Source: Escherichia phage 1-6af | Reading direction: 5' to 3' (one strand) | Sequence record: OR983333.1 | Length of the DNA stretch: 64,000 nt | Part shown: positions 8,120 to 55,396 of the stretch, in pieces | How positions within the stretch are numbered: the first letter of the stretch is position 1 | Layout: each line of letters begins with the position of its first letter | Position numbers and translations under genes: made by a program | Notes under the pieces: generated by a model | Databases searched by the model: none | The model's input: the letters and a program-made list of their open reading frames with translations, nothing else | Told to the model about the DNA's origin: nothing

Positions 8120-8186
8120 GACCTAAGTCCTGCCTTCTATAATGTATATAGGGGGTAGGACATTTTTATTTATAAAAGGAGACGTT

Positions 8187-11100
8187 ATGGCTAACATTAA
8201 ACCGTGGGAAGAAGCTTCCAAAGCTCCTGCGTATCTGAATGCCTCTCCGGAGCAACAAGCTCAAATGAGAGAACAATATAAGGCAGCAGGTGGCTCTATT
8301 CCTGAGGAACAACCAGTAGCACAACCACAACAAGAAGAACGTGGTGCTATAGGTGAGTTTGCTCAAGGTGTGTCAAATGCTCTTCAATCTGGTGGTGCAA
8401 ATATTGCAGCTAGTGCTGCTAAAGGTATTGGTGGTTTAGTTGAGATTGGTGAGAATCTAGCTGGAGCACAAACTAGTTATGGTAAGCGTATCCAAGAGAA
8501 CTCTCAGAACCTTCTGAAAGAACGTATGGATAAGATTGAGGATGGGATTGGTAAAACTGTTGGTCAGTATGCTGGCGTTGCTGGTGATATTGGTATGACT
8601 GTTGCTAACCCATTGGCTGCTGCTGCTATCATCGCAGGTCGTGAGACAGGTCGTGCATATGCAGACCAAACCCCTGAAGAGGGAGAAGATAAATCTATTC
8701 TAGATGCGGCCTTAGTTGGTGGTGCTAACTATGCGGCTCAGAGAATTCTTCCGGGCGCTGTTGGTACAGCTGAGTCCACACTTGGACGTATCGGTCAGAA
8801 CGTTGCTAGTAACGCAGTGGCTGGTGCTAAAGGTGGCGCTCTTGTAGGTGCTGCTGAAGCTCAGAACAAGCATGGAGATGATACAACCTTTGCTAATGTA
8901 TTAGAGGGTGCTATCGAAGAAGGTGCTATGGGTGCTGCATTTGGTGGTGCAGTTGGTGGGGTTCATGGTTTGATTAGCCGTCCAGACTCTGCTGTCTTCA
9001 AGAATACTCCAGAGTATGCGAAGACTGATATTGCTGCTGATGACGAACTAATTCGCAGTGCTAAGAATATTGATGAATTGAAAGAAGCCTACTCTAAAGC
9101 TGAAACTGCTAACGCTGCTTCTGCTCTGAATCTTCTGGATGAGAATGGATTCCGTATTACAGATGCTGTTGCTGTAGATTCTCCTGCTGCTCAGCGTATC
9201 CTCAATACTGACCAAGCTCGCGCTGAGAAAGCTGCTTCCGTTCAGAAAGAACATTCCAACATTCCGGGCCTTAACCCTTTAGCTTCTCCTGCTAAAACTC
9301 GTGGTAAAGCATTCGCTGATAACGAGCACAACCAGAAGCAGGCTGTTGCTATGAAGGATGCAATGGCTGATTATACCAAAGACAACACGAAAGCTCTTAC
9401 AGATGTTCTAGATAATCTAGACCGTGAATTAACATCTCTCCGAGCTTCTGGTGATTTTACTGGTAGTCCGATTGATATTAAGAATCGTACACAAGCTGAC
9501 CGTGATTTCATTGATGCTTACAAGACTTTCTACAATGAAGCAAATCGATTCAAAGCTCGTGATGGTGAAGACTTTAATAACTTTGTAGAGAAAGCTGCTG
9601 AACTACAGAAGATGGCTGATAATGTTTCTCCAGAGATGAAGAAAGCTATCGGTGGGTTGAAGAAACTGAAAGGTATGCCTGAAGGTTTTAATCCTATCCA
9701 AGATGCTTACACTCTGAACAATACAGCTAAGTTCATGAGCAATCAAGACCGTGGTTGGACTTCCCTGACTGATGATGGATTCCGTGAGGCTTCTTCACCT
9801 AGTCTGGTAATGAATACTCTCGGTGCTGCTAAGTATGCTCTGAATCGCTTCTCTTCTCAGCGTGCTCGCTCTCAACGTGTTAAGCAACAAGAATCTAACA
9901 GTGAAGCTATCCGCTCTCTTGCTCGTGGTGATTTGGAAGTTGCTCGTGCTAAATCTACTGCTGATGAAGCTCGTGCTAAGATGGAAGAAGAACCAGTTGT
10001 TGATGACATTAAATTTAAGACGCAAAATGACGTGGAAACCGAACCGGTTCGGGAGTCTTCTTCTAGTACTGTGACAGAAGAAAATCCTCCTTCTTCTGCT
10101 CCTCAAGAAACTCCTCTTACAGCTCGTGATTTAGTTGCTCAAAGACGTGCTATCCGTCAGGCTGAACAGCGTCGTGCTGAAGAAGAGGCGTTGGCTGCTC
10201 AAGAAGCTCCGGTCGAACAAGCTCCACAGGCTGAACCTCTCCCTGCTCGCAACCCTTTAGAGGAGCGTCGTGCAATGGAACAGCAACGTGCTCAAGAAGA
10301 GGCCGCACAAGCTCCAGAACCAACCGTAGAGGAACCAACAGTCAAAGCTGAGCCATTACCTGCCCGTGCTCCTAAAGCTCCTAAGGAGGCTGTACAGGAT
10401 GTTAAACCGGCAAGTGGTGTAGAACGTTTAGCTGCTATGTCTAGTGCTGCCCGTCAGGCTACTAAAGATCGTGCAGAACGTTTTGCTCGTTCTCTGTACT
10501 CTAAGGCTGCTAAGGCTAAAGCTACCGCTGAAAACTTCTTGGCTTATAAAGGTGATCCTAAGGAATTGATGCGTCGTATTCGTCAGGAAGACAATGCTAT
10601 CAACACTGAACGTCATGAAGAAATGGCTCGTAACCAGCTGGCTTCACAGCAAGGTATTGCTACTGCTAAGAACAACACTGTACGAACTAATTTTGCTGAA
10701 TGGGTTAAGGAACGTGGTCTGCCAGAAGACATTGCTACTAAGGCATTACGTGCTGAAGAGAAAGGTTTAGGTGGGAACGTTACTAACTTGGATAGTCTGA
10801 AACGTCGTGCTGAAAGGTTGTATCAGAAGCAGCGTGAAGATGAGTTTGATAGATTGTATCAACAAGCTCTAGAAGAGAACAAAGCTTTCGATAATAAGAA
10901 TGCTCCTAAACTGGTTGACCAGAAGAAAGAGCTTCAGTCTGAGATTGATGCTTTGATTGATTCAGAACCTTTACGTCCTGCTCAGAAAGATGCTATGCGC
11001 AAGTTGATGAATGACTTTGTAGATGGAAAGTTTAAATCTTCAGAGAAAGCTGGTAGGGAAGAGGCTTTGGAAGTTGGTCAGATGAAGGATATTTGGGATG

Positions 11101-12608
11101 GGTTTATTAACACCTATAACAGAGAAGTGAATGCCTTCAACAAAGCCAACAAGAACTCTCAATACGAAGCTGCTGCTAAGCATTTACAGGCTCGTGAAGA
11201 ACGTCTTGCTACCCTCAGGAAAAAGGCTCAGGCTCGTTCGGATGCTAAAGCTGCTGTTGAGAATGAACGTAAAACCCTAGAGGCTATTGCAGCTCAGAAG
11301 AGTGAGATTGAGAAGATGATGGAAGGTTTACCTAAACCTGTTCGTGAGGCTCAGGAATCTCGTACATTGAAACAGTTGGCTGCTCACCACGATAAGAACT
11401 CTCCGGTTCCTCCAGAGAAGTTCCGTAGTTATATTGAACGTATTCACAACGCCGAGTCAGATTACCTTGATCGTCAGCGTCGTTTAACTGATGCAGAGGA
11501 AGATGCTCGTCAGGCTAAGTGGAATAAGATGTATGAGCAAGCGGAAGAGATGAACCGTAAGTTTGATGTGGACAAGAGAGTTAAGCGCAGTGAAGAGCTT
11601 AAAGCGGCCCAAGAGCGAGAGAATGACCTTATGGCAGTACAACGTCAACGTGATGACATTCATCGCCGTCTGATGCGTACTATGGAAGATAAGGGCATAT
11701 CTAGAGAGGATGCTGAAGCGTTTGCTGGTTCCTACATGGATAACCGTTATGCACTTCTCGAGAAGCCTATGACTCCAACTGAACATCAGAATGCTCGCTC
11801 TCGTATTGAGGCTGATGTTGAGAAGTTCGCTAAGAAGTACGAATCAATGACTCCTATCGAGAAAGAGATTGTTAAGGTTACTGGGGATACTGAAGGTAAG
11901 CTTGATAACTTGGATGCTGATACTAGGAAGGCTATTGAGGAGGCTCAGAAGGTTGACTCTGATATTAAGAAACTGCAAGAGGAAGAGTTGGAGATGGAGA
12001 AGATTCGTTCTGCTCTGCCTGACGATGAAAGATCTCAAGCAAATTCTGATATCTTGGAAAGCATTAAACAACAGGAAGAGGTCTTTGCTGATAAAGTAGA
12101 GAAAGCTTTCTTGAGTGGTAAAAGCTTGGATGAGTTGGCTAGTGTGGCTGAAGTTTTAGACAGGGTTCATGGTGCAGATAAGGCTGGTAACAACCGTCGC
12201 TTTGTACGTGCATTGCAGACTGCTGCTGAAAACAAGAAGAAGTATGGTGATAATCCAGTAGCTTGGTTTAGTGCTGATGATTATTCTGCTATTGCTAAAC
12301 TTGGTGCTTCTTCCGCAGGTGGTAACAAATCCAGAGCACTGGAGAAGATCTTTGGTTCTACAGCTGAACAGGCTAAGAGTAAGTTGCTTGGTAGGGATGA
12401 TGTAGCGAAGATGAGACGTGTAATTGAAGAGAACCCTGATATTAAGATTCCTTCTTACAAGACAACGAACCGTACTGAGTACTTGAAGTTCTTGGAGAAG
12501 TTTAATGACGAAGGGAAGCCGAAGATTAAACGTGGCTCATTGTCAGAGAAGCTTGAACGCAGTAAGCGTCAATCGAGACTCCGTGTAAGAGTTCGACCTA
12601 AGGAGTGA
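8187..12608 (+). CDS. large internal virion protein (ejection or tape-measure-like)
   Basis: About 1474 aa, Ala/Glu/Lys/Arg-rich coiled coil; ATG 8187 with AAAGGAG RBS (ORF-track start 8142 lacks an RBS). Confidence 0.45.
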   Translation: MANIKPWEEASKAPAYLNASPEQQAQMREQYKAAGGSIPEEQPVAQPQQEERGAIGEFAQGVSNALQSGGANIAASAAKGIGGLVEIGENLAGAQTSYGKRIQENSQNLLKERMDKIEDGIGKTVGQYAGVAGDIGMTVANPLAAAAIIAGRETGRAYADQTPEEGEDKSILDAALVGGANYAAQRILPGAVGTAESTLGRIGQNVASNAVAGAKGGALVGAAEAQNKHGDDTTFANVLEGAIEEGAMGAAFGGAVGGVHGLISRPDSAVFKNTPEYAKTDIAADDELIRSAKNIDELKEAYSKAETANAASALNLLDENGFRITDAVAVDSPAAQRILNTDQARAEKAASVQKEHSNIPGLNPLASPAKTRGKAFADNEHNQKQAVAMKDAMADYTKDNTKALTDVLDNLDRELTSLRASGDFTGSPIDIKNRTQADRDFIDAYKTFYNEANRFKARDGEDFNNFVEKAAELQKMADNVSPEMKKAIGGLKKLKGMPEGFNPIQDAYTLNNTAKFMSNQDRGWTSLTDDGFREASSPSLVMNTLGAAKYALNRFSSQRARSQRVKQQESNSEAIRSLARGDLEVARAKSTADEARAKMEEEPVVDDIKFKTQNDVETEPVRESSSSTVTEENPPSSAPQETPLTARDLVAQRRAIRQAEQRRAEEEALAAQEAPVEQAPQAEPLPARNPLEERRAMEQQRAQEEAAQAPEPTVEEPTVKAEPLPARAPKAPKEAVQDVKPASGVERLAAMSSAARQATKDRAERFARSLYSKAAKAKATAENFLAYKGDPKELMRRIRQEDNAINTERHEEMARNQLASQQGIATAKNNTVRTNFAEWVKERGLPEDIATKALRAEEKGLGGNVTNLDSLKRRAERLYQKQREDEFDRLYQQALEENKAFDNKNAPKLVDQKKELQSEIDALIDSEPLRPAQKDAMRKLMNDFVDGKFKSSEKAGREEALEVGQMKDIWDGFINTYNREVNAFNKANKNSQYEAAAKHLQAREERLATLRKKAQARSDAKAAVENERKTLEAIAAQKSEIEKMMEGLPKPVREAQESRTLKQLAAHHDKNSPVPPEKFRSYIERIHNAESDYLDRQRRLTDAEEDARQAKWNKMYEQAEEMNRKFDVDKRVKRSEELKAAQERENDLMAVQRQRDDIHRRLMRTMEDKGISREDAEAFAGSYMDNRYALLEKPMTPTEHQNARSRIEADVEKFAKKYESMTPIEKEIVKVTGDTEGKLDNLDADTRKAIEEAQKVDSDIKKLQEEELEMEKIRSALPDDERSQANSDILESIKQQEEVFADKVEKAFLSGKSLDELASVAEVLDRVHGADKAGNNRRFVRALQTAAENKKKYGDNPVAWFSADDYSAIAKLGASSAGGNKSRALEKIFGSTAEQAKSKLLGRDDVAKMRRVIEENPDIKIPSYKTTNRTEYLKFLEKFNDEGKPKIKRGSLSEKLERSKRQSRLRVRVRPKE

Positions 12609-18687: not shown

Positions 18688-19103
18688 ATTTTAATTTCCT
18701 TATTTAATTTGAAAGATTGTTGCTCTCTTTGAGCGGTTATGTATAGTATACATTACGCTTATACCGATAAGAGTACTATATAATATAAGTATCTTTGGTA
18801 GTAGATATAACACACTAGTAATGTATATATTGTATAGCTGATAAAGTTATTGCAGGCTTGTATATTGGGCAATTCACAGAATCCCTTGCAAGTACCGAAG
18901 GGCAGGAGCCACCTGCGAGATAAAAATAGAGAATTAAGGAATCCTTGATTTAGGTTGTAGGGACTCCTAGGGACTTTGATTCTCTATTTAAAAGAATATT
19001 AATTACTTATTACCTAAATAATTAACTAACTTACTTAAACCAAATTCAAGAACAATAGATAAAAAGATTATTCCTAAGAAAGCTAAAAAGTAAAGGATAT
19101 AAG
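18688..19103 (-). promoter_or_regulatory. AT-rich intergenic control region upstream of the SSB gene
   Basis: 416-bp ORF-free AT-rich region with short inverted repeats (AGAGAAT ... ATTCTCT). Confidence 0.3.
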
Positions 19104-25190: not shown

Positions 25191-25508
25191 TTATGATGAG
25201 CTTAAAGCTCCTTTGCGTGCTCCAGCTGCTTTTCCAGCTCGATCACCACTTTTGCCGCCGTTTGAACGGTTTGAGCTGACTGATTCAACACGTAAGTTGC
25301 TTGACGCATTAGAACCTCCAGACTTGACAGCTCGTTTGTGTCCAACGTCTTTACCTCTGACAGCAGCTTTTCCATCGCGCTTTTCAACGATGCGACGTGC
25401 ACGGTGGCGCTGAGCATCTCCGCTCTTGCTCCCAATTCCCGTTTCACCGCGCTTGATCGCAGTCCTTCTTTCTTGTGCATAATCTCTTTTTCCTACATGA
25501 TCTGCCAT
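25191..25508 (-). CDS. basic low-complexity protein (frame uncertain)
   Basis: ATG overlaps the HNH stop (TAATG) with AGGAGA RBS; an alternative overlapping frame 25202..25480 encodes a helical protein. Confidence 0.3.
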   Translation of the reverse strand: MADHVGKRDYAQERRTAIKRGETGIGSKSGDAQRHRARRIVEKRDGKAAVRGKDVGHKRAVKSGGSNASSNLRVESVSSNRSNGGKSGDRAGKAAGARKGALSSS

Positions 25509-30379: not shown

Positions 30380-30451
30380 AACTCTCTCCTGTAAAATACA
30401 AATTCTTGTTGTACTCTATATACATTTGAGAGTTACCATATCTACTACCAA

Positions 30452-45182: not shown

Positions 45183-45545
45183 CTATTGGTTTTTAATTAA
45201 CTCAATCGACTTACGGATATAAAGAATATCTCGGAAGTTTCGATAGTTGTTCATAAATTGATGCTTCTGGAACTCAGCTTCTTCCAGAGCTTTCTTTGCT
45301 TCTGCGTAGTTTTTACGGGCAAGATGTACAACCCGCTCTGGTAACACGTTTGCACGATGGATTAGATACTTATGAGCTTTCATGTTACTTTGCTCACGAG
45401 CAATCTTACCTTTAGCAACCTTGATACCATTTGCAATCCAAGCAAGTTCTTGCTCAAGCTCATCGTTGGACATTCCACCGAGGTTTGATGCAACCTTGTT
45501 CAGAGTTTCAATATTAACGTTGCCCTTGATGGGACGTGTATTCAT
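45183..45545 (-). CDS. hypothetical protein
   Basis: 120-aa helical ORF, first gene of the ligase operon. Confidence 0.4.
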   Translation of the reverse strand: MNTRPIKGNVNIETLNKVASNLGGMSNDELEQELAWIANGIKVAKGKIAREQSNMKAHKYLIHRANVLPERVVHLARKNYAEAKKALEEAEFQKHQFMNNYRNFRDILYIRKSIELIKNQ

Positions 45546-45547
45546 AC

Positions 45548-45700
45548 TTACTCCTGTTGTTTACACTCGTCAATAACCCACTGATAAGTGGATTGCCCAG
45601 AAAAGAAACACTGAATAAATCCAGATGTTCTCTGCGTTACCAGTGCTAGTGCACAAATCACTACCGCTGCTGCTAGCAGTTTTAAATCTAATTTAGACAT
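45548..45700 (-). CDS. small signal-peptide-like protein (50 aa)
   Basis: Below cutoff; ATG 45700 with GAGG RBS; hydrophobic N-terminus; hand translation. Confidence 0.3.
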   Translation of the reverse strand: MSKLDLKLLAAAVVICALALVTQRTSGFIQCFFSGQSTYQWVIDECKQQE

Positions 45701-45926
45701 ATTTCCTCTCGTTGAATTTAAAAAAGGACTCTCCGAAAAGAGTCAAGCTTTAAATACAAAAAGATATTACCCAATATCTGTGGATAACCTGCTCTTAAAA
45801 TATCTATCCGACGGATGTTCGAGGAATGTTCCTCTCCCTAGCATCGGCCCCATACGGGAAATATATTAAGATTAGGTTAGTTGAGTCAGAATAACTCACA
45901 TAGCCCTCCGAAGAAGGCTATAGGTG

Positions 45927-46160
45927 TTACTCGCCTTTCTTAGCACGGTCTTTGGCAGTCTTGCCAGTGCGGATGCGGTGTGAAACGTTAACCAGAGTGC
46001 CACCTTCAACTACAGTAACGCTCTTGTTTTTAGCCAGATCAAACACAGTCTTCTCTGTGCCGCCCAAGCGAATTTGCTTAGGCTCACTGAAGGTTTGGGT
46101 TGATTTAGATTGGAACTGGAATGGTTGACGGATTGCATCAATTGCGCTTACTTTAGACAT
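45927..46160 (-). CDS. hypothetical protein
   Basis: 77-aa basic ORF with AAGGAA RBS. Confidence 0.4.
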   Translation of the reverse strand: MSKVSAIDAIRQPFQFQSKSTQTFSEPKQIRLGGTEKTVFDLAKNKSVTVVEGGTLVNVSHRIRTGKTAKDRAKKGE

Positions 46161-46266
46161 AGGGGAAATTCCTTAAAAAGTCATGGCTGCGTAGAGGGAA
46201 TTCCCTACGCAAATTGGGCCGCCCACAGAGAGGCGTCATAGTACTAAAAGGAGGAGAGAAGAAGGC

Positions 46267-46383
46267 TTATTTAGCTACCTTTTTCTGTCCATTTACGAAC
46301 CAGATAATTGAACCATCAGGCTGTCGTTGACCGAAGCCTTTCTGGTTAATCATATCGTCATAAGAATATGCTTTACGTCTCAT
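46267..46383 (-). CDS. hypothetical small protein (38 aa)
   Basis: Below cutoff; AGGAAAA RBS; hand translation. Confidence 0.25.
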   Translation of the reverse strand: MRRKAYSYDDMINQKGFGQRQPDGSIIWFVNGQKKVAK

Positions 46384-46394
46384 TTGTTTTCCTA

Positions 46395-46607
46395 TTAACA
46401 GGCGTAGTTACTTAGATACACATGCCGATCTCTCAGCACCTCACCAAGAAAAGATTTGTAATCTTCTGTTATGTCAGAATAAAACTTCTCTTTAGCTTCT
46501 TCCTCAGACACTTTCCACAACTTAGAAAGTTGGTTGAACAATACTTCCTCAGAGGAGAACAGTAGGTATGCATTCTGGATGAGTATATCTTTCTCTTCTT
46601 GAGTCAT
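46395..46607 (-). CDS. hypothetical protein
   Basis: 70-aa ORF; operon context. Confidence 0.4.
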   Translation of the reverse strand: MTQEEKDILIQNAYLLFSSEEVLFNQLSKLWKVSEEEAKEKFYSDITEDYKSFLGEVLRDRHVYLSNYAC

Positions 46608-46614
46608 AGATCAC

Positions 46615-46863
46615 CTATGAAGTTAAAATAATCTCAGCCTTAATAAACTTCTCACCAACAACCATATCTCCAGACACAGGACGAACTTCTCCAGTTCCTA
46701 AGTTAACAGCTCCAGCAGGTTGACAACCTATGCTCTTAGCTGTCAGCATGTAAATCTTTTGAAGATGGCACTCTTGGAGAGTGAACACATCTGACATGTT
46801 TAGATCTTTAACACGGAGGACTGTTTCCTCTTTGCTCTTAACTTTAATATGAATAGTGCTCAT
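46615..46863 (-). CDS. small beta-rich protein (paralog family member)
   Basis: About 80 aa; shares a loose motif with the family described in findings. Confidence 0.4.
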   Translation of the reverse strand: MSTIHIKVKSKEETVLRVKDLNMSDVFTLQECHLQKIYMLTAKSIGCQPAGAVNLGTGEVRPVSGDMVVGEKFIKAEIILTS

Positions 46864-46865
46864 AA

Positions 46866-47111
46866 TTACTCCTGAACCACTGACATACGAATCATTTCAA
46901 CCTGAGTATCACTTTTCATAACACCCAGAACACCAGTCATAAGATTAACTGTAGTAATCCAACCTTCTTCGACAGAGATCTTATTGGATACATTGGTAAC
47001 TCGCATATAATACTGAGGCGATGCTAAACCTTGTTGGATTACGAAAGGGTTTCCGGGAATAATTGTATCCAGTGAAACAGTTTTATCTTTAATCTTGGGA
47101 AGGATCTTCAT
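46866..47111 (-). CDS. small beta-rich protein (paralog family member)
   Basis: LxxIPGNPF motif; tandem with neighbours. Confidence 0.45.
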   Translation of the reverse strand: MKILPKIKDKTVSLDTIIPGNPFVIQQGLASPQYYMRVTNVSNKISVEEGWITTVNLMTGVLGVMKSDTQVEMIRMSVVQE

Positions 47112-47359
47112 TATGTGTTATCCACCAAAAGTTCTGCTGACACAGGAACAACTCGGCACCAGATAGAAGGTGCTGTTACGTTACCATCGGATAAACGAAG
47201 GGTAATTGCTCGATCAGAGTTAACGGTTACATTAGGACTTTCAGACACAGACCCTTTAACATAGAGAGTAGCACTCTCAGGGAATTTAAATACTGCTCCG
47301 CTGGGAAGGGAGTTGATATCAACCGTGGTCACTTCTTCTTTCTTGTGAGTAATCTTCAT
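47111..47359 (-). CDS. small beta-rich protein (paralog family member)
   Basis: INSLPSGAVF motif; ATGA overlap with neighbour. Confidence 0.45.
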   Translation of the reverse strand: MKITHKKEEVTTVDINSLPSGAVFKFPESATLYVKGSVSESPNVTVNSDRAITLRLSDGNVTAPSIWCRVVPVSAELLVDNT

Positions 47360-47367
47360 ATTGATTC

Positions 47368-47679
47368 CTATTTAAGTTTGAGGCTAATATTAAGGTGCAT
47401 ACATGCCCTGTTCTGTACAGCAGCATAGCTTCTACCGAGCATGTCAGCCATTCTCTGAATAGACATGAACCCAGCATTACGGATAAGGAACTGGTCTTCT
47501 TCTTCAGACCATTTAACTCGGATTGAAGCTCTTGATATTCCGAATTTAGTGCAAGCTGTATTAACTGCATTCTCCGTTACATTCATAATCTGAGCAACTT
47601 CTTTAACCGAGTACTCTTTGATTAGTCTCCGAAGATTTTCAATCTGCATCGGAGTCCATATAGTTCTTCGTGCTTTCAT
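47368..47679 (-). CDS. HTH DNA-binding protein (two tandem HTH-like repeats)
   Basis: Two repeats of W..E......S..E.A.....AV pattern (sigma region-4 / Myb-like); GGAGG RBS. Confidence 0.45.
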   Translation of the reverse strand: MKARRTIWTPMQIENLRRLIKEYSVKEVAQIMNVTENAVNTACTKFGISRASIRVKWSEEEDQFLIRNAGFMSIQRMADMLGRSYAAVQNRACMHLNISLKLK

Positions 47680-47706
47680 ACATCCTCCAATTAGATATTA
47701 TTCGAT

Positions 47707-47853
47707 TTGGTTACAGGTGTAGGATTCGAACCTACGCTCGGACTCCCTAGCCATCACCAAAGGAATGCATCCAATGGGCATACGGTCATTTGACCACGGG
47801 CGACTGCTTTACCGTAGGCTCTGCATTAGTGAGCCTCATAAGCTATACCTGTA
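47707..47853 (-). other. tRNA-like element of non-canonical length
   Basis: Minus strand reads GTAGG-TTCGAAT-CCTAC (T-arm), ACCTGTA, A, CCA; the only complementary 5' acceptor (TACAGGT) lies about 147 nt upstream, so no standard cloverleaf. Confidence 0.3.
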
Positions 47854-47982
47854 ACTAATTGCCAGGGATTCCACCTGGCTCCATCTGTTTTTAAAGTCAC
47901 TCAGATATCGTCCGGACTCTTTGCTGAGGGCCGTACAGGCTACTTCAAGTAACTGCTGTAAAGATTATTCCACAGCTTACCA

Positions 47983-48081
47983 CGATGAGGAGGTGCCTCA
48001 TCAGGAGAGTACACTAGCTCTGGGCCACGCCGTAGATATCGGCCTCCCTTCTACAGCTAATCAGCTAGTGTACTCTCCTGA
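47983..48081. repeat. nested inverted repeats (7-bp hairpin plus 20-bp perfect inverted repeat with 43-nt spacer)
   Basis: GATGAGG-aggtg-CCTCATC, then ATCAGGAGAGTACACTAGCT ... AGCTAGTGTACTCTCCTGAT. Confidence 0.6.
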
Positions 48082-49420: not shown

Positions 49421-49510
49421 TCCAAGAGCCTCTAGCGAGGATGACAGGGTTCGAACCTGCATACTCCAATTACTTCTTTAACGACCGCTTAGAAGGCGGG
49501 GAAGATACAT
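49421..49510. repeat. palindromic tRNA-like intergenic element
   Basis: 13-bp perfect inverted repeat TCTAGCGAGGATG ... CATCCTCGCTAGA enclosing GGTTCGAACC and a CCGC-CTTCTAA-GCGG stem-loop (minus sense). Confidence 0.45.
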
Positions 49511-49525
49511 CCTCGCTAGAAGCTC

Positions 49526-51365: not shown

Positions 51366-51393
51366 AAACAACAAAGGCCGCCCGAAGGCAGCC
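51366..51393 (-). terminator. intrinsic terminator
   Basis: GGCTGCC-ttcg-GGCGGCC hairpin with T-rich runs on both sides. Confidence 0.5.
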
Positions 51394-51402
51394 TTTTATT
51401 TA

Positions 51403-53787: not shown

Positions 53788-53816
53788 ATAAAAAAGCCCC
53801 AGCCGTAGCCGGGGCA
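53788..53816 (-). terminator. intrinsic terminator
   Basis: GC-rich hairpin GCCCCGGC / GCTGGGGC followed by TTTTTT on minus. Confidence 0.5.
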
Positions 53817-53875
53817 AACCTGAAAGCAACACATGACCGTTGCTATAAATACACTCGCAAATGCACTTACAGCAA

Positions 53876-53900
53876 CGCAAAAAGCCGCTCAAAGGCGGCT
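53876..53900 (-). terminator. intrinsic terminator
   Basis: AGCCGCC-tttga-GCGGCT hairpin followed by TTTTTGCGTT on minus. Confidence 0.45.
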
Positions 53901-53956
53901 ATGCGGAAGCTTCAAATGGGGAGAGGGCACGACGCTACAGAAAGAGCGTCATAGTA

Positions 53957-54130
53957 CTAAAAAGAGAGGCTATTGGAGAGGTTACTTATTGCCTTCCTTA
54001 ATGCCTTGTTTTCTTGTTTAACCAATTCGTTTTCTTCTTGCAAGGATGCTACCAGATGGACCAGAACATCAACTACTGCATCACCTTGCCGCATCTCTCT
54101 GACTTTATTTAGAATCTCTGAATAAATCAT
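53957..54130 (-). CDS. hypothetical small coiled-coil protein (57 aa)
   Basis: Below cutoff; ATGA overlap with upstream stop; its stop lies inside a conserved motif. Confidence 0.3.
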   Translation of the reverse strand: MIYSEILNKVREMRQGDAVVDVLVHLVASLQEENELVKQENKALRKAISNLSNSLSF

Positions 54131-55294: not shown

Positions 55295-55396
55295 CTTTGA
55301 TTAGATTCTTTGATTAATGCACTGAATCAATGCACTGATAAAAGAAAAGGCGCTACCCGTTAAGATAGCGCCTTATGCTTATTTGAATTGTCTTAC

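What the first reader, a model, noticed from the sequence alone, without database searches (positions are those of the whole stretch)
46189..46253. Repeated motif GCGTCATAGTACTAAAA(R)GAG next to a GGGAATTCCC-centred palindrome
The about 20-nt motif occurs at 46233-46253 and again at 53946-53969, each time immediately downstream of a small ORF on the coding strand. In the second copy the stop codon of the small ORF is part of the motif. Here it is followed by the 22-nt palindrome GCGTAGAGGGAATTCCCTACGC and the RBS of the next gene. Candidate phage-specific promoter, operator or RNA processing signal.
Basis: seen in the sequence. Interest (0 to 1): 0.45.

Follow-up and report, generated by a model that had tools for sequence, protein, structure and literature searches.

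The report
Probable site-specific DNA nick sites
The repeated motif is real, and its invariant core (TACTATGAC) is exactly the sequence at which related Pseudomonas phages carry programmed single-strand nicks, so this E. coli phage probably has three such nick sites; nicking here is inferred and was not measured.

Summary
The window is a phiEco32-like coliphage (Kuravirus; 100% identical to phage 1-6bf). The motif is present at the stated coordinates, twice, with none expected by chance. The genes here lie on the minus strand, so it reads CTCYTTTTAGTACTATGACGC.

It matches neither the known phage-sigma promoter (tAATGTAtA) nor a sigma-70 promoter. Across diverged relatives only A(G/C)TACTRTGACG stays invariant. 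This core equals the mapped nick consensus 5'-TACT/RTGMC-3' of Pseudomonas phage tf and WACTRTGAC of phage Rembedalsseter.

- tf and phiEco32 are true relatives: they share primase/helicase, DNA polymerase, terminase, portal and capsid proteins.
- Every Gordonclarkvirinae genome examined over its whole length has three sites. The third is inside a late gene at 10067-10075 (+).
- All three sites run in the same direction as the local genes, and the base before TACT covaries at all three.
- The 12-mer is strongly over-represented and strand-specific in Salmonella phage 7-11, Crifsvirus, Privateervirus and a Photobacterium phage.
- All these groups share one small, highly conserved HNH-like protein (window 25191-25508), which I propose as the nickase.

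Physical nicking in Kuravirus is untested. Verdict: a real conserved signal, most likely a new member of a known but unexplained kind.

The parts
46233..46253 (-). Motif copy 1 (c1), CTCCTTTTAGTACTATGACGC. The conserved 12-mer AGTACTATGACG is 46245..46234. By analogy with tf (TACT/ATGAC), the predicted nick is between 46240 and 46239 on the minus strand.
   Evidence: The core is invariant in 7 diverged genomes. It matches the tf nick consensus.
53946..53966 (-). Motif copy 2 (c2), CTCTTTTTAGTACTATGACGC. The 12-mer is 53958..53947. The predicted nick is between 53953 and 53952 on the minus strand. The TAG stop of ORF 53957-54130 lies inside the motif.
   Evidence: phiEco32 has TACTGTGAC here, the other allowed form of the consensus.
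10065..10076 (+). Third site (c3), AGTACTGTGACA, inside the 1488-aa late-gene ORF 8142-12608 (phiEco32 gene 26 homologue). It runs in the same direction as that gene. The predicted nick is between 10070 and 10071 on the + strand.
   Evidence: The same position in SU7 and 4E8 reads ACTACTGTGACG, so the base before TACT changes together with c1 and c2.
46220..46235 (-). Weak hairpin CGCCU-CUCUGU-GGGCG, starting in the 3' end of c1.
   Evidence: -7.4 kcal/mol, z = 0.26, no better than shuffles. The stem is kept with changes in phiEco32, 4E8 and SU7.
53928..53953 (-). Hairpin whose 5' arm is CUAUGACGC of c2.
   Evidence: -11.5 kcal/mol, z = -3.8, 0 of 200 shuffles fold as well. In SU7, ECBP2 and Bas86 the equivalent hairpin is followed by a T-rich tail, so it looks like a terminator.
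46189..46210 (-). Imperfect 22-nt palindrome GCGTAGGGAATTCCCTCTACGC between c1 and the RBS of gene 46160-45927. It is specific to copy 1 and is not part of the repeated element.
   Evidence: Conserved in 4E8, not conserved in this form in SU7, ECBP2 or Bas86.
53877..53900 (-). Intrinsic terminator-like hairpin AGCCGCCTTTGAGCGGCT plus T-run, 46 nt downstream of c2.
   Evidence: Conserved in all 7 genomes aligned.
53788..53815 (-). Second terminator-like hairpin GCCCCGGCTACGGCTGGGGC plus T6.
   Evidence: Annotated as a terminator in phages Paul and 4E8.
46267..46383 (-). 38-aa ORF upstream of c1 (phi32_94 homologue). It is conserved together with c1 into Suseptimavirus.
53957..54130 (-). 57-aa ORF whose stop codon lies in c2. 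It is absent from phiEco32, so c2 sits at an indel boundary.
25191..25508 (-). Candidate nickase: a 105-aa HNH-like protein (phi32_58 homologue, phrog_4590). The link to the motif is inferred from co-occurrence only.

Best explanation
The two copies, plus a third at 10067-10075, are the recognition sites of a phage-encoded, sequence-specific, strand-specific nicking system of the type described in Pseudomonas phage tf. The enzyme would recognise A(G/C)TACTRTGACG in double-stranded phage DNA. It would cut one strand after TACT, leaving a ligatable 3'-OH/5'-P nick in the packaged genome.

In this phage the nicks would fall on the non-template (coding) strand. Two would lie in the early-gene arm, about 9% and 19% of the genome length from the right end in phiEco32 coordinates. 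One would lie in the late arm.

The most likely enzyme is the 105-aa HNH-like protein at 25191-25508.

Shown here:
- the motif, its conservation, its identity to the nick consensus and its strand rule;
- the relatedness of the phage groups;
- the co-occurrence of the motif with the HNH-like protein.

Inferred:
- that Kuravirus DNA is actually nicked at these sites;
- that this protein does the nicking.

Unknown, as in all nicked phages: what the nicks are for. The upstream pyrimidine tract, the downstream hairpins and the terminators are local context, not part of the shared element.
For: 1. Core identity. The invariant part of the motif, TACT(A/G)TGAC(G), equals the nick consensus 5'-TACT/RTGMC-3'. 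That consensus was mapped by run-off sequencing, primer extension and ligase-reversible denaturing gels in tf (PMC3517423). It also equals WACTRTGAC, seen in native nanopore reads of Rembedalsseter (PMC11780129). 10 of the 12 tf GAC sites are also followed by G.

2. Relatedness. tf and phiEco32 share primase/helicase (47% identity), DNA polymerase (40%), large terminase (37%), portal, capsid, scaffold and tail proteins, and the amidoligase gene cluster.

3. Conservation. Across window, phiEco32, Paul, 4E8, SU7, ECBP2 and Bas86, both intergenic sites keep TACTRTGACG while the flanks diverge or are replaced.

4. Site number. phiEco32, SU7 and 4E8, scanned over the whole or nearly the whole genome, each have exactly three TACTRTGAC sites at the same places, all running in the same direction as the local genes; the 64-kb window shows the same three.

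5. Covariation. The base before TACT is G at all three sites in the phiEco32 clade and C at all three in SU7 and 4E8. At c3 this costs a Ser/Thr change.

6. Relatives. ACTACTGTGACG is the most over-represented 12-mer in the 40-90 kb arm of Salmonella phage 7-11. Over that whole genome, 12 consensus sites lie on one strand and 1 on the other. ACTACGGTGACG is the most over-represented 10-12-mer of Cronobacter phage A24. A24 has 8 such copies plus one ACTACTATGAC variant, 9 sites in all, every one in the direction of the local genes, in two reading frames and one intergenic position. ECO319P1 shows the same pattern.

7. Prediction tested. Two further lineages were chosen only because they encode the HNH-like protein. 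Photobacterium phage PhCF1.2 has 6 sites on one strand and 0 on the other. The right arm of Proteus phage P59 has 4 copies of GACTACTGTGACG, all on the coding strand.

Against: - No physical evidence for nicks in any phiEco32-like phage was found in the searchable literature.
- By count alone the 9-mer is not enriched in Kuravirus. There are 3 sites against about 1.2 expected.
- The three sites are on two different DNA strands. In tf all 14 are on one strand.
- The two intergenic copies share 21 nt, carry adjacent hairpins and, in Suseptimavirus, T-runs. This context is absent from tf sites and could indicate an additional or different RNA-level role.
- The Gordonclarkvirinae HNH-like protein has Gly where the others have Asp before the catalytic His, and it does not itself reach any Pfam HNH threshold.
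- The enzyme assignment rests on co-occurrence without a natural negative control.
Confidence: 0.55

Rival explanations
1. The 12-mer is a binding site for a sequence-specific phage protein (the HNH-like protein or another) that no longer nicks in Kuravirus, or never did. It would act as a protein roadblock, a pause or termination aid, a recombination hot spot or a module boundary marker.
For: - The conservation, the covariation at position -1 and the strand rule fit any sequence-specific protein.
- The Asp-to-Gly change next to the catalytic His and the drop to 3 sites in Gordonclarkvirinae could mean weakened catalysis.
- Both intergenic sites sit at homology breakpoints. The match to Suseptimavirus ends 6 nt after c1. 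The match to phiEco32-type genomes begins 7 nt before c2.
Against: The same sequence is physically nicked in two relatives that encode the same protein family. The invariant H57, N71 and N80 are retained in the window protein.
Confidence: 0.2
2. One reading: a phage-specific promoter (a -10-like TACTAT), or an RNA processing or stability signal in early transcripts.
For: - TACTAT keeps the T, A and T positions of a -10 hexamer.
- The sites run in the same direction as transcription in every phage examined.
- Both copies are intergenic and followed by hairpins.
- The early arm has several terminators, so it needs either restart or read-through.
Against: - There is no -35 element or TG extension, and the promoter scan does not call either site.
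- The motif is unlike the gp36 element and is absent from published promoter lists for phiEco32-type phages.
- A start 7 nt after TACTAT would exclude GACGC from the RNA, so the conserved hairpin could not form.
- c2 lies upstream of two terminators, not downstream of them.
- In A24, 7-11, tf and at c3 the motif sits inside ORFs in different frames.
- No Rfam family matches.
Confidence: 0.1
3. The functional unit is the hairpin: an attenuator or weak intrinsic terminator, or a lambda nut-like boxA/boxB antitermination site. On this view the conserved 5' sequence is only its upstream arm.
For: - GACGC forms the 5' arm of a hairpin at c1 and c2 in most clades, with compensating changes.
- 4E8 c1 and SU7 c1 and c2 carry T-runs. 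4E8 c1 and SU7 c2 are annotated as terminators in those records.
- c2 contains CGCTCTTTC, similar to boxA CGCTCTTTA (boxA sequence from my own knowledge).
- c2 precedes two terminators.
Against: - The window's c1 hairpin is no better than shuffled sequence.
- T-runs are absent in the phiEco32 clade.
- The 4E8 c2 hairpin is degenerate.
- The boxA-like string is not in c1 or in other clades.
- The invariant part is the 12-mer, not the stem.
- The 12-mer occurs without hairpins in tf, A24 and 7-11.
Confidence: 0.1
4. Chance repeat, or a leftover of a local duplication with no function.
For: Only two long copies per genome. The count of the 9-mer is close to random expectation.
Against: - 0 of 100 shuffles give even one match.
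- The core is invariant across genera whose flanks are unalignable.
- There is covariation at three unlinked sites.
- The same word is massively enriched in related genomes.
Confidence: 0.02

Closest known systems
Localized single-strand interruptions (nicks) of Pseudomonas phage tf and the LUZ24-like phages (Krylovvirus, Bruynoghevirus), consensus 5'-TACT/RTGMC-3' or WACTRTGAC (PMC3517423, PMC11780129)
   Same: - Identical 9-10-nt core, with both the TACTATGAC and TACTGTGAC variants and a following G.
- Sites mostly on the coding strand of the early arm.
- Linear genome with short direct terminal repeats and two convergent gene arms.
- Shared replication, packaging and amidoligase genes, and the same small HNH-like protein next to the replication genes.
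   Different: - Only 3 sites per 77-kb genome, against 8-15 per 45 kb.
- One site is on the other DNA strand.
- Recognition seems to extend two bases 5' (A-G/C).
- The intergenic sites have hairpin and terminator context.
- The host is E. coli.
- Nicks have not been demonstrated.
Nicks of coliphage T5/BF23 and of phiKMV-like phages
   Same: Programmed, strand-specific, sequence-associated nicks in virion DNA of lytic phages with terminal repeats. Their function is unknown (as reviewed in PMC3517423 and PMC11780129).
   Different: Unrelated consensus sequences (T5 R/GCGCRGG; phiKMV CGACNNNNNCCTA/CTCCGG) and unrelated phage lineages.
phiEco32 gp36-dependent middle and late promoters (tAATGTAtA)
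   Same: A short, single-element, phage-specific motif present in a few copies per genome and oriented with the genes.
   Different: Different sequence and different positions. gp36-type elements in the window are at 8140, 18747, 18819 and 30419. The motif studied here was not among the six mapped promoters upstream of genes 6, 13, 26, 40, 58 and 68.
Small phage HNH nicking endonucleases (for example Gme HNH, PDB 4h9d; also GVE2 HNH and I-HmuI)
   Different: No zinc-binding cysteines. An additional, very conserved basic N-terminal half (RDYxxERxxAIxRGETGxGSKSGDAxRHRARR). No activity shown.

Membership tests
tf-type localized nick sites (TACT/RTGMC) | Sequence matches the consensus 5'-TACTRTGMC-3' | tested here: met
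   c1 and c2 are TACTATGAC and c3 is TACTGTGAC. phiEco32 c2 is TACTGTGAC.
tf-type localized nick sites (TACT/RTGMC) | All sites lie on one DNA strand | tested here: inconclusive
   Two sites are on the minus strand and one on the plus strand. All three are on the coding strand. 7-11 has 12 against 1, A24 has 9 against 1 for TAC[TG][AG]TGAC, and tf has 14 against 0.
tf-type localized nick sites (TACT/RTGMC) | The motif is over-represented relative to chance | tested here: not met
   3 sites against about 1.2 expected per Kuravirus genome. The feature is met in relatives: 7-11 has 12-13, PhCF1.2 has 6, and A24 has 9 of a variant. In Kuravirus the support comes from conservation and covariation, not from counts.
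tf-type localized nick sites (TACT/RTGMC) | A physical, ligatable nick after the fourth base in virion DNA | not testable with these tools
   This needs virion DNA or raw reads. No report was found.
tf-type localized nick sites (TACT/RTGMC) | The phage belongs to, or is related to, the lineage that carries the system | tested here: met
   About 17 shared proteins between tf and phiEco32. The phrog_4590 protein is present in tf, Rembedalsseter, LUZ24-like phages, Kuravirus, 7-11, A24, P59 and PhCF1.2.
phiEco32 gp36 promoters | The element tAATGTAtA lies 6-8 nt upstream of the start | tested here: not met
   There is no such element at or near either copy. The matches lie elsewhere.
Sigma-70 promoters | -35 and -10 hexamers with a 16-18 nt spacer | tested here: not met
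   Neither copy is among the 42 promoter-like sites. The early promoters are at 57.2-59.7 kb.
Intrinsic terminators | A GC-rich hairpin immediately followed by a T-run | tested here: not met
   The window's c1 and c2 hairpins lack T-runs. T-runs are present at SU7 c1 and c2 and at 4E8 c1.
Known RNA families (Rfam 15) | A covariance-model match | tested here: not met
   There is no hit at either copy. The only hits are sub-threshold terminator-driven ones at 53788-53917 and a tRNA-like hit at 49436-49514.
HNH endonucleases (for the candidate enzyme at 25191-25508) | A beta-beta-alpha-metal fold with catalytic His and Asn/His metal ligands | tested here: inconclusive

The most novel reading that the evidence does not exclude
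The tf-type nicking system is not a peculiarity of LUZ24-like Pseudomonas phages. It would be an ancestral trait of a large podophage supergroup comprising Gordonclarkvirinae/phiEco32, Grimontviridae (7-11, Crifsvirus, Privateervirus), Krylovvirus, Bruynoghevirus and marine relatives. Its long-unidentified nickase would be the roughly 100-aa HNH-like protein of phrog_4590. Its specificity would have co-evolved with the sites: AGTACT in one clade, ACTACT in another, and ACTACGG in Crifsvirus. Kuravirus, with only three sites in a genetically tractable E. coli host, would then be the simplest system in which to find out what programmed nicks do.
Probability: 0.4. Interest if true: 0.75.

Novelty: new member of a known kind. 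Interest (0 to 1): 0.62.

Why it matters
Programmed nicks in phage genomes have been known for about 50 years (T5, later phiKMV-like and tf-like phages). Their function is still unknown, and the tf-type papers read here name no nickase.

If the three Kuravirus sites are nicked, three things follow:
- The phenomenon would extend to a well-studied coliphage family used in transcription research and phage therapy.
- There would be a concrete candidate enzyme with natural specificity variants.
- There would be a minimal three-site system in E. coli in which sites and enzyme can be mutated one by one.

There is also a practical consequence. Nick sites produce read-start pile-ups that can be mistaken for genome termini (PMC7291057).

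Tried and rejected
- N4-like reading. The first BLAST summary listed Gamaleyavirus, so I briefly considered N4 RNAPII or vRNAP promoters. I dropped this once the taxonomy showed Kuravirus.
- gp36 and sigma-70 promoters. Rejected.
- Operator idea based on the 8-bp palindrome TAGTACTA. The palindrome is not conserved in SU7 or 4E8.
- Lambda-like nut site (boxA CGCTCTTT in c2). It is absent from c1 and from other clades.
- Terminal repeat or duplication. Many records showed 'two places' for the c2 block. This is explained by an insertion of about 770 bp (phiEco32 genes 118-119) after the second terminator, not by a duplication.
- Small coding ORF starting at the motif's ATG. It would give 28 aa at c1 and 5 aa at c2, is not conserved and has no Shine-Dalgarno sequence (read from the sequence).
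- IMG/VR pattern scan. It added only three Kuravirus contigs. The other 21 loci were unrelated chance matches.
- Full-text search for the motif words. It returned only unrelated primers.
- The two key phiEco32 papers (PMC3275717, PMC2587145) are not held. The absence of the motif from their promoter maps is therefore taken from later papers.
- The svsR/Kuravirus paper held nothing relevant.
- A PDB sequence search with the HNH-like family profile gave no hits.

Full report
**What the window is.** The region 45.5-48 kb is 100% identical to Escherichia phage 1-6bf and 99.6% identical to phage FH3. Both are Kuravirus (Gordonclarkvirinae), the phiEco32 group of prolate-headed podophages. The ORFs overlapping 44.5-48.5 kb and 52.5-55.5 kb, and the annotated genes of 1-6bf over about 35.5-58 kb, are all on the minus strand. 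The sigma-70 early promoters described for phiEco32 and SU10 are recognisable at about 57.2, 57.7 and 59.7 kb on the minus strand. Both copies of the motif therefore lie inside the long leftward early transcription unit.

**The observation.** GCGTCATAGTACTAAAARGAG occurs at 46233-46253 and 53946-53966. It occurs nowhere else, even with three mismatches, and there were no matches in 100 shuffles. On the coding strand it reads CTCYTTTTAGTACTATGACGC.
- Copy 1 follows the 38-aa ORF 46267-46383 by 13 nt.
- Copy 2 contains the TAG stop of the 57-aa ORF 53957-54130.
- The palindrome at 46189-46210 is real but has a 2-nt bulge, and it is unique in the window.
- phiEco32 has the same two copies, between genes 94/93 and genes 120/119. 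The second reads TACTGTGAC.

**What it is not.**
- The promoters of the phage sigma factor gp36 carry tAATGTAtA and lie upstream of genes 6, 13, 26, 40, 58 and 68 (PMC8948821; PMC12276001). Matches to that element in the window are elsewhere.
- The published promoter and terminator table of the close relative SU10 has nothing at these positions.
- The sigma-70 scan does not call either site.
- Rfam has no match.

**Comparative anatomy.** I compared both intergenic regions in seven genomes from two genera: window, phiEco32, Paul, 4E8, SU7, ECBP2 and Bas86.
- The only block invariant at both sites is TACT-R-TGACG, preceded by A/G/T then G or C.
- The 8-bp palindrome TAGTACTA is specific to the phiEco32 clade. 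SU7 has AACTACTA and 4E8 has AGCTACTG.
- GACGC usually forms the 5' arm of a small hairpin. That hairpin is weak at the window's c1 (z = 0.26), good at c2 (z = -3.8), terminator-like in Suseptimavirus and at 4E8 c1, and degenerate at 4E8 c2.
- The GGGAATTCCC palindrome is kept in 4E8 but not in this form in Suseptimavirus.
- The repeated functional unit is therefore the 12-mer, not the hairpins or the palindrome.

**The key match.** The core equals the consensus 5'-TACT/RTGMC-3' at which Pseudomonas putida phage tf carries 14 localized single-strand nicks. Those nicks were mapped by run-off sequencing and primer extension. They are ligase-reversible and present in more than 90% of molecules. 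The sites are TACTGTGAC (11), TACTGTGCC (2) and TACTATGAC (1), all on one strand (PMC3517423). LUZ24, PaP3 and MR299-2 mainly carry TACTATGAC. [quoted passage not shown] In tf, 10 of the 12 GAC sites are followed by G, as in this window. The literature that cites this motif concerns only Pseudomonas phages.

**Is the match more than coincidence?** Four independent lines say yes.

1. *The phages are related.* tf and phiEco32 share primase/helicase (47% identity), DNA polymerase (40%), the separate exonuclease subunit, FEN exonuclease, large terminase (37%), portal, scaffold, capsid and tail proteins, and the amidoligase/ATP-grasp/amidotransferase cluster.

2. *Three sites per genome, with covariation.* phiEco32, SU7 and 4E8, scanned over the whole or nearly the whole genome, each have exactly three TACTRTGAC sites at the same three places; the window shows the same three. 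The third is inside the gene-26 homologue, at window 10067-10075 on the + strand, within ORF 8142-12608. All three run in the same direction as the local genes. The base before TACT is G at all three sites in the phiEco32 clade (AGTACT) and C at all three in SU7 and 4E8. At the coding site this costs a Ser/Thr replacement. Concerted change at three unlinked sites is what a change in the specificity of one recognising protein would produce.

3. *Enrichment in more distant relatives.*
   - Salmonella phage 7-11: ACTACTGTGACG is the most over-represented 12-mer in the 40-90 kb arm. Over the whole genome, 12 consensus sites lie on the early-arm coding strand and 1 on the other.
   - Cronobacter phage A24: ACTACGGTGACG is the most over-represented 10-12-mer of the whole genome. 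There are 8 copies plus one ACTACTATGACGCC. All run with the local genes, in two reading frames and one intergenic position.
   - ECO319P1 shows the same pattern.

4. *A prediction that held.* One small protein is conserved at 58-62% identity between tf, phiEco32, A24 and 7-11, better than any other shared protein. It is encoded at window 25191-25508 and corresponds to phi32_58 and tf_29 (phrog_4590). tblastn finds it in 252 phage records. These include tf, Rembedalsseter, the LUZ24-like phages, all the phiEco32-like groups, and Aeromonas, Proteus, Vibrio and Photobacterium phages. I picked two lineages on that basis alone.
   - Photobacterium phage PhCF1.2 has six (T)TACTACTRTGAC sites, all on one strand.
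   - The right arm of Proteus phage P59 (34% GC) has four GACTACTGTGACG, all on the coding strand.

**The candidate enzyme.**
- The window protein itself has no Pfam hit.
- 12 of 30 family members hit Pfam HNH (best E = 8.8e-5) and 8 hit HNH_3.
- tf_29 hits three PHROG HNH families.
- H57 and N80 are invariant, and N71/L72 are nearly so.
- An AlphaFold model built on the family alignment is only moderately confident (pLDDT 67).
- The Gordonclarkvirinae proteins have Gly instead of Asp before the catalytic His.

The assignment as nickase is an inference from co-occurrence and fold family. It has not been demonstrated.

**Mechanism proposed.** The HNH-like protein, or another conserved phage factor, recognises A(G/C)TACTRTGACG. 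It cuts the motif-bearing strand after TACT and leaves a nick in mature DNA. In this phage the motif-bearing strand is always the non-template strand, so such nicks would not block RNA polymerase. In phiEco32 coordinates the early-arm sites lie about 7.0 and 14.5 kb from the right end (9% and 19% of the genome). That is the end which carries the early promoters. What the nicks do is unknown in every nicked phage. The papers cited propose roles in packaging, gene expression, recombination and evasion of host defences.

Two local observations may bear on function. They are not evidence for any particular role.
- c2 sits immediately upstream of two tandem intrinsic terminators.
- Both intergenic sites coincide with homology breakpoints between clades.

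**Weak points.**
- No physical nick data exist for any phiEco32-like phage.
- The count in Kuravirus (3) is close to chance (about 1.2). The case rests on conservation, covariation and relatives.
- The sites are on two DNA strands, unlike in tf.
- The 21-nt identity between c1 and c2, the pyrimidine tract upstream of c1 (conserved into Suseptimavirus) and the hairpins are not explained by the nick model. They may reflect a second, transcript-level role.

I put the nick-site reading at about 0.55. A non-nicking protein site is at 0.2. The promoter or RNA-processing reading and the hairpin or terminator reading are at 0.1 each. Chance is at about 0.02.

**Verdict.** The best-supported reading is a new, coliphage member of the tf-type programmed-nick family, with a concrete candidate nickase.

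Noticed in passing
L035/L036 (Cronobacter phage A24, NC_070973.1); L039 (ECO319P1): ACTACGGTGACG is the most over-represented 10-12-mer of the A24 genome. There are 8 copies plus one ACTACTATGACGCC. All run with the local genes, in two reading frames and one intergenic position. It looks like a specificity variant (TACGG instead of TACTR) of the same signal. The second most repeated word, TATAATGTGCAATAATTA, looks like the phage-sigma promoter.
   Followed up: partly
L043/L044 (Salmonella phage 7-11); L045 (Photobacterium phage PhCF1.2); L046 (Proteus phage P59): There are strand-specific clusters of ACTACTRTGACG: 13 consensus sites in 7-11, 6 in PhCF1.2 and 4 exact 13-mers in half of P59. I found no report of this for these phages. 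In 7-11 the sites are densest in the first 5 kb from the right (early) end.
   Followed up: partly
window 25191-25508 (-): This 105-aa protein (phi32_58 homologue, phrog_4590, 'unknown function') is the best-conserved protein between phiEco32-like and tf/LUZ24-like phages, at about 60% identity. It has a very conserved basic N-terminal half and an HNH-like C-terminal half. Gordonclarkvirinae have Gly in place of the Asp before the catalytic His.
   Followed up: partly
window 49436-49514 (-): Rfam reports a tRNA at 29.7 bits, just above the gathering score, but ARAGORN finds no tRNA anywhere in the window. Relatives annotate a tRNA-Arg at the equivalent place, so this copy may be degenerate or unusual.
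   Followed up: no
window 46163-46172 and 46196-46205 (-): The RBS region of gene 46160-45927 (AAGGAATTTCCCCTATG) repeats the centre of the upstream palindrome (GGGAATTCCC). This could be a pair of related protein sites or an RBS-sequestering structure. In the MFE fold of 46150-46270, CUCCU just upstream of c1 pairs with AAGGA of this RBS.
   Followed up: no
window 53957-54130 and 53787/53781; L002 29649-30423: c2 is flanked by indels between close relatives. The 57-aa ORF upstream is present in the window and in Paul but absent in phiEco32. phiEco32 has an insertion of about 770 bp (genes 118-119, annotated 'tail protein') right after the second terminator. c1 marks the 3' end of the block shared with Suseptimavirus. 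The putative nick sites therefore coincide with mosaic boundaries.
   Followed up: partly
window 55347-55374, 53877-53900, 53788-53815, 51373-51396, 45727-45744 (-): Several intrinsic terminator-like hairpins lie inside the early transcription unit, downstream of the only recognisable early promoters (57.2-59.7 kb). Read-through or antitermination of early transcripts seems necessary. The 7-11 paper says an antitermination strategy for that phage remains to be defined.
   Followed up: no
window 8140-8148 (+), 18747-18755 (-), 18819-18827 (+), 30419-30427 (-): These are exact or near-exact matches to the gp36 promoter element TAATGTATA. The match at 8140 overlaps the first ATG of the 1488-aa ORF, so the true start of that gene is probably further downstream.
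   Followed up: no
window 45500-48000: megablast of this stretch also hit 13 Klebsiella phage records and 3 Gamaleyavirus (N4-like) records at 80-90% identity. This suggests that one of the small early genes is shared with unrelated phage groups.
   Followed up: no
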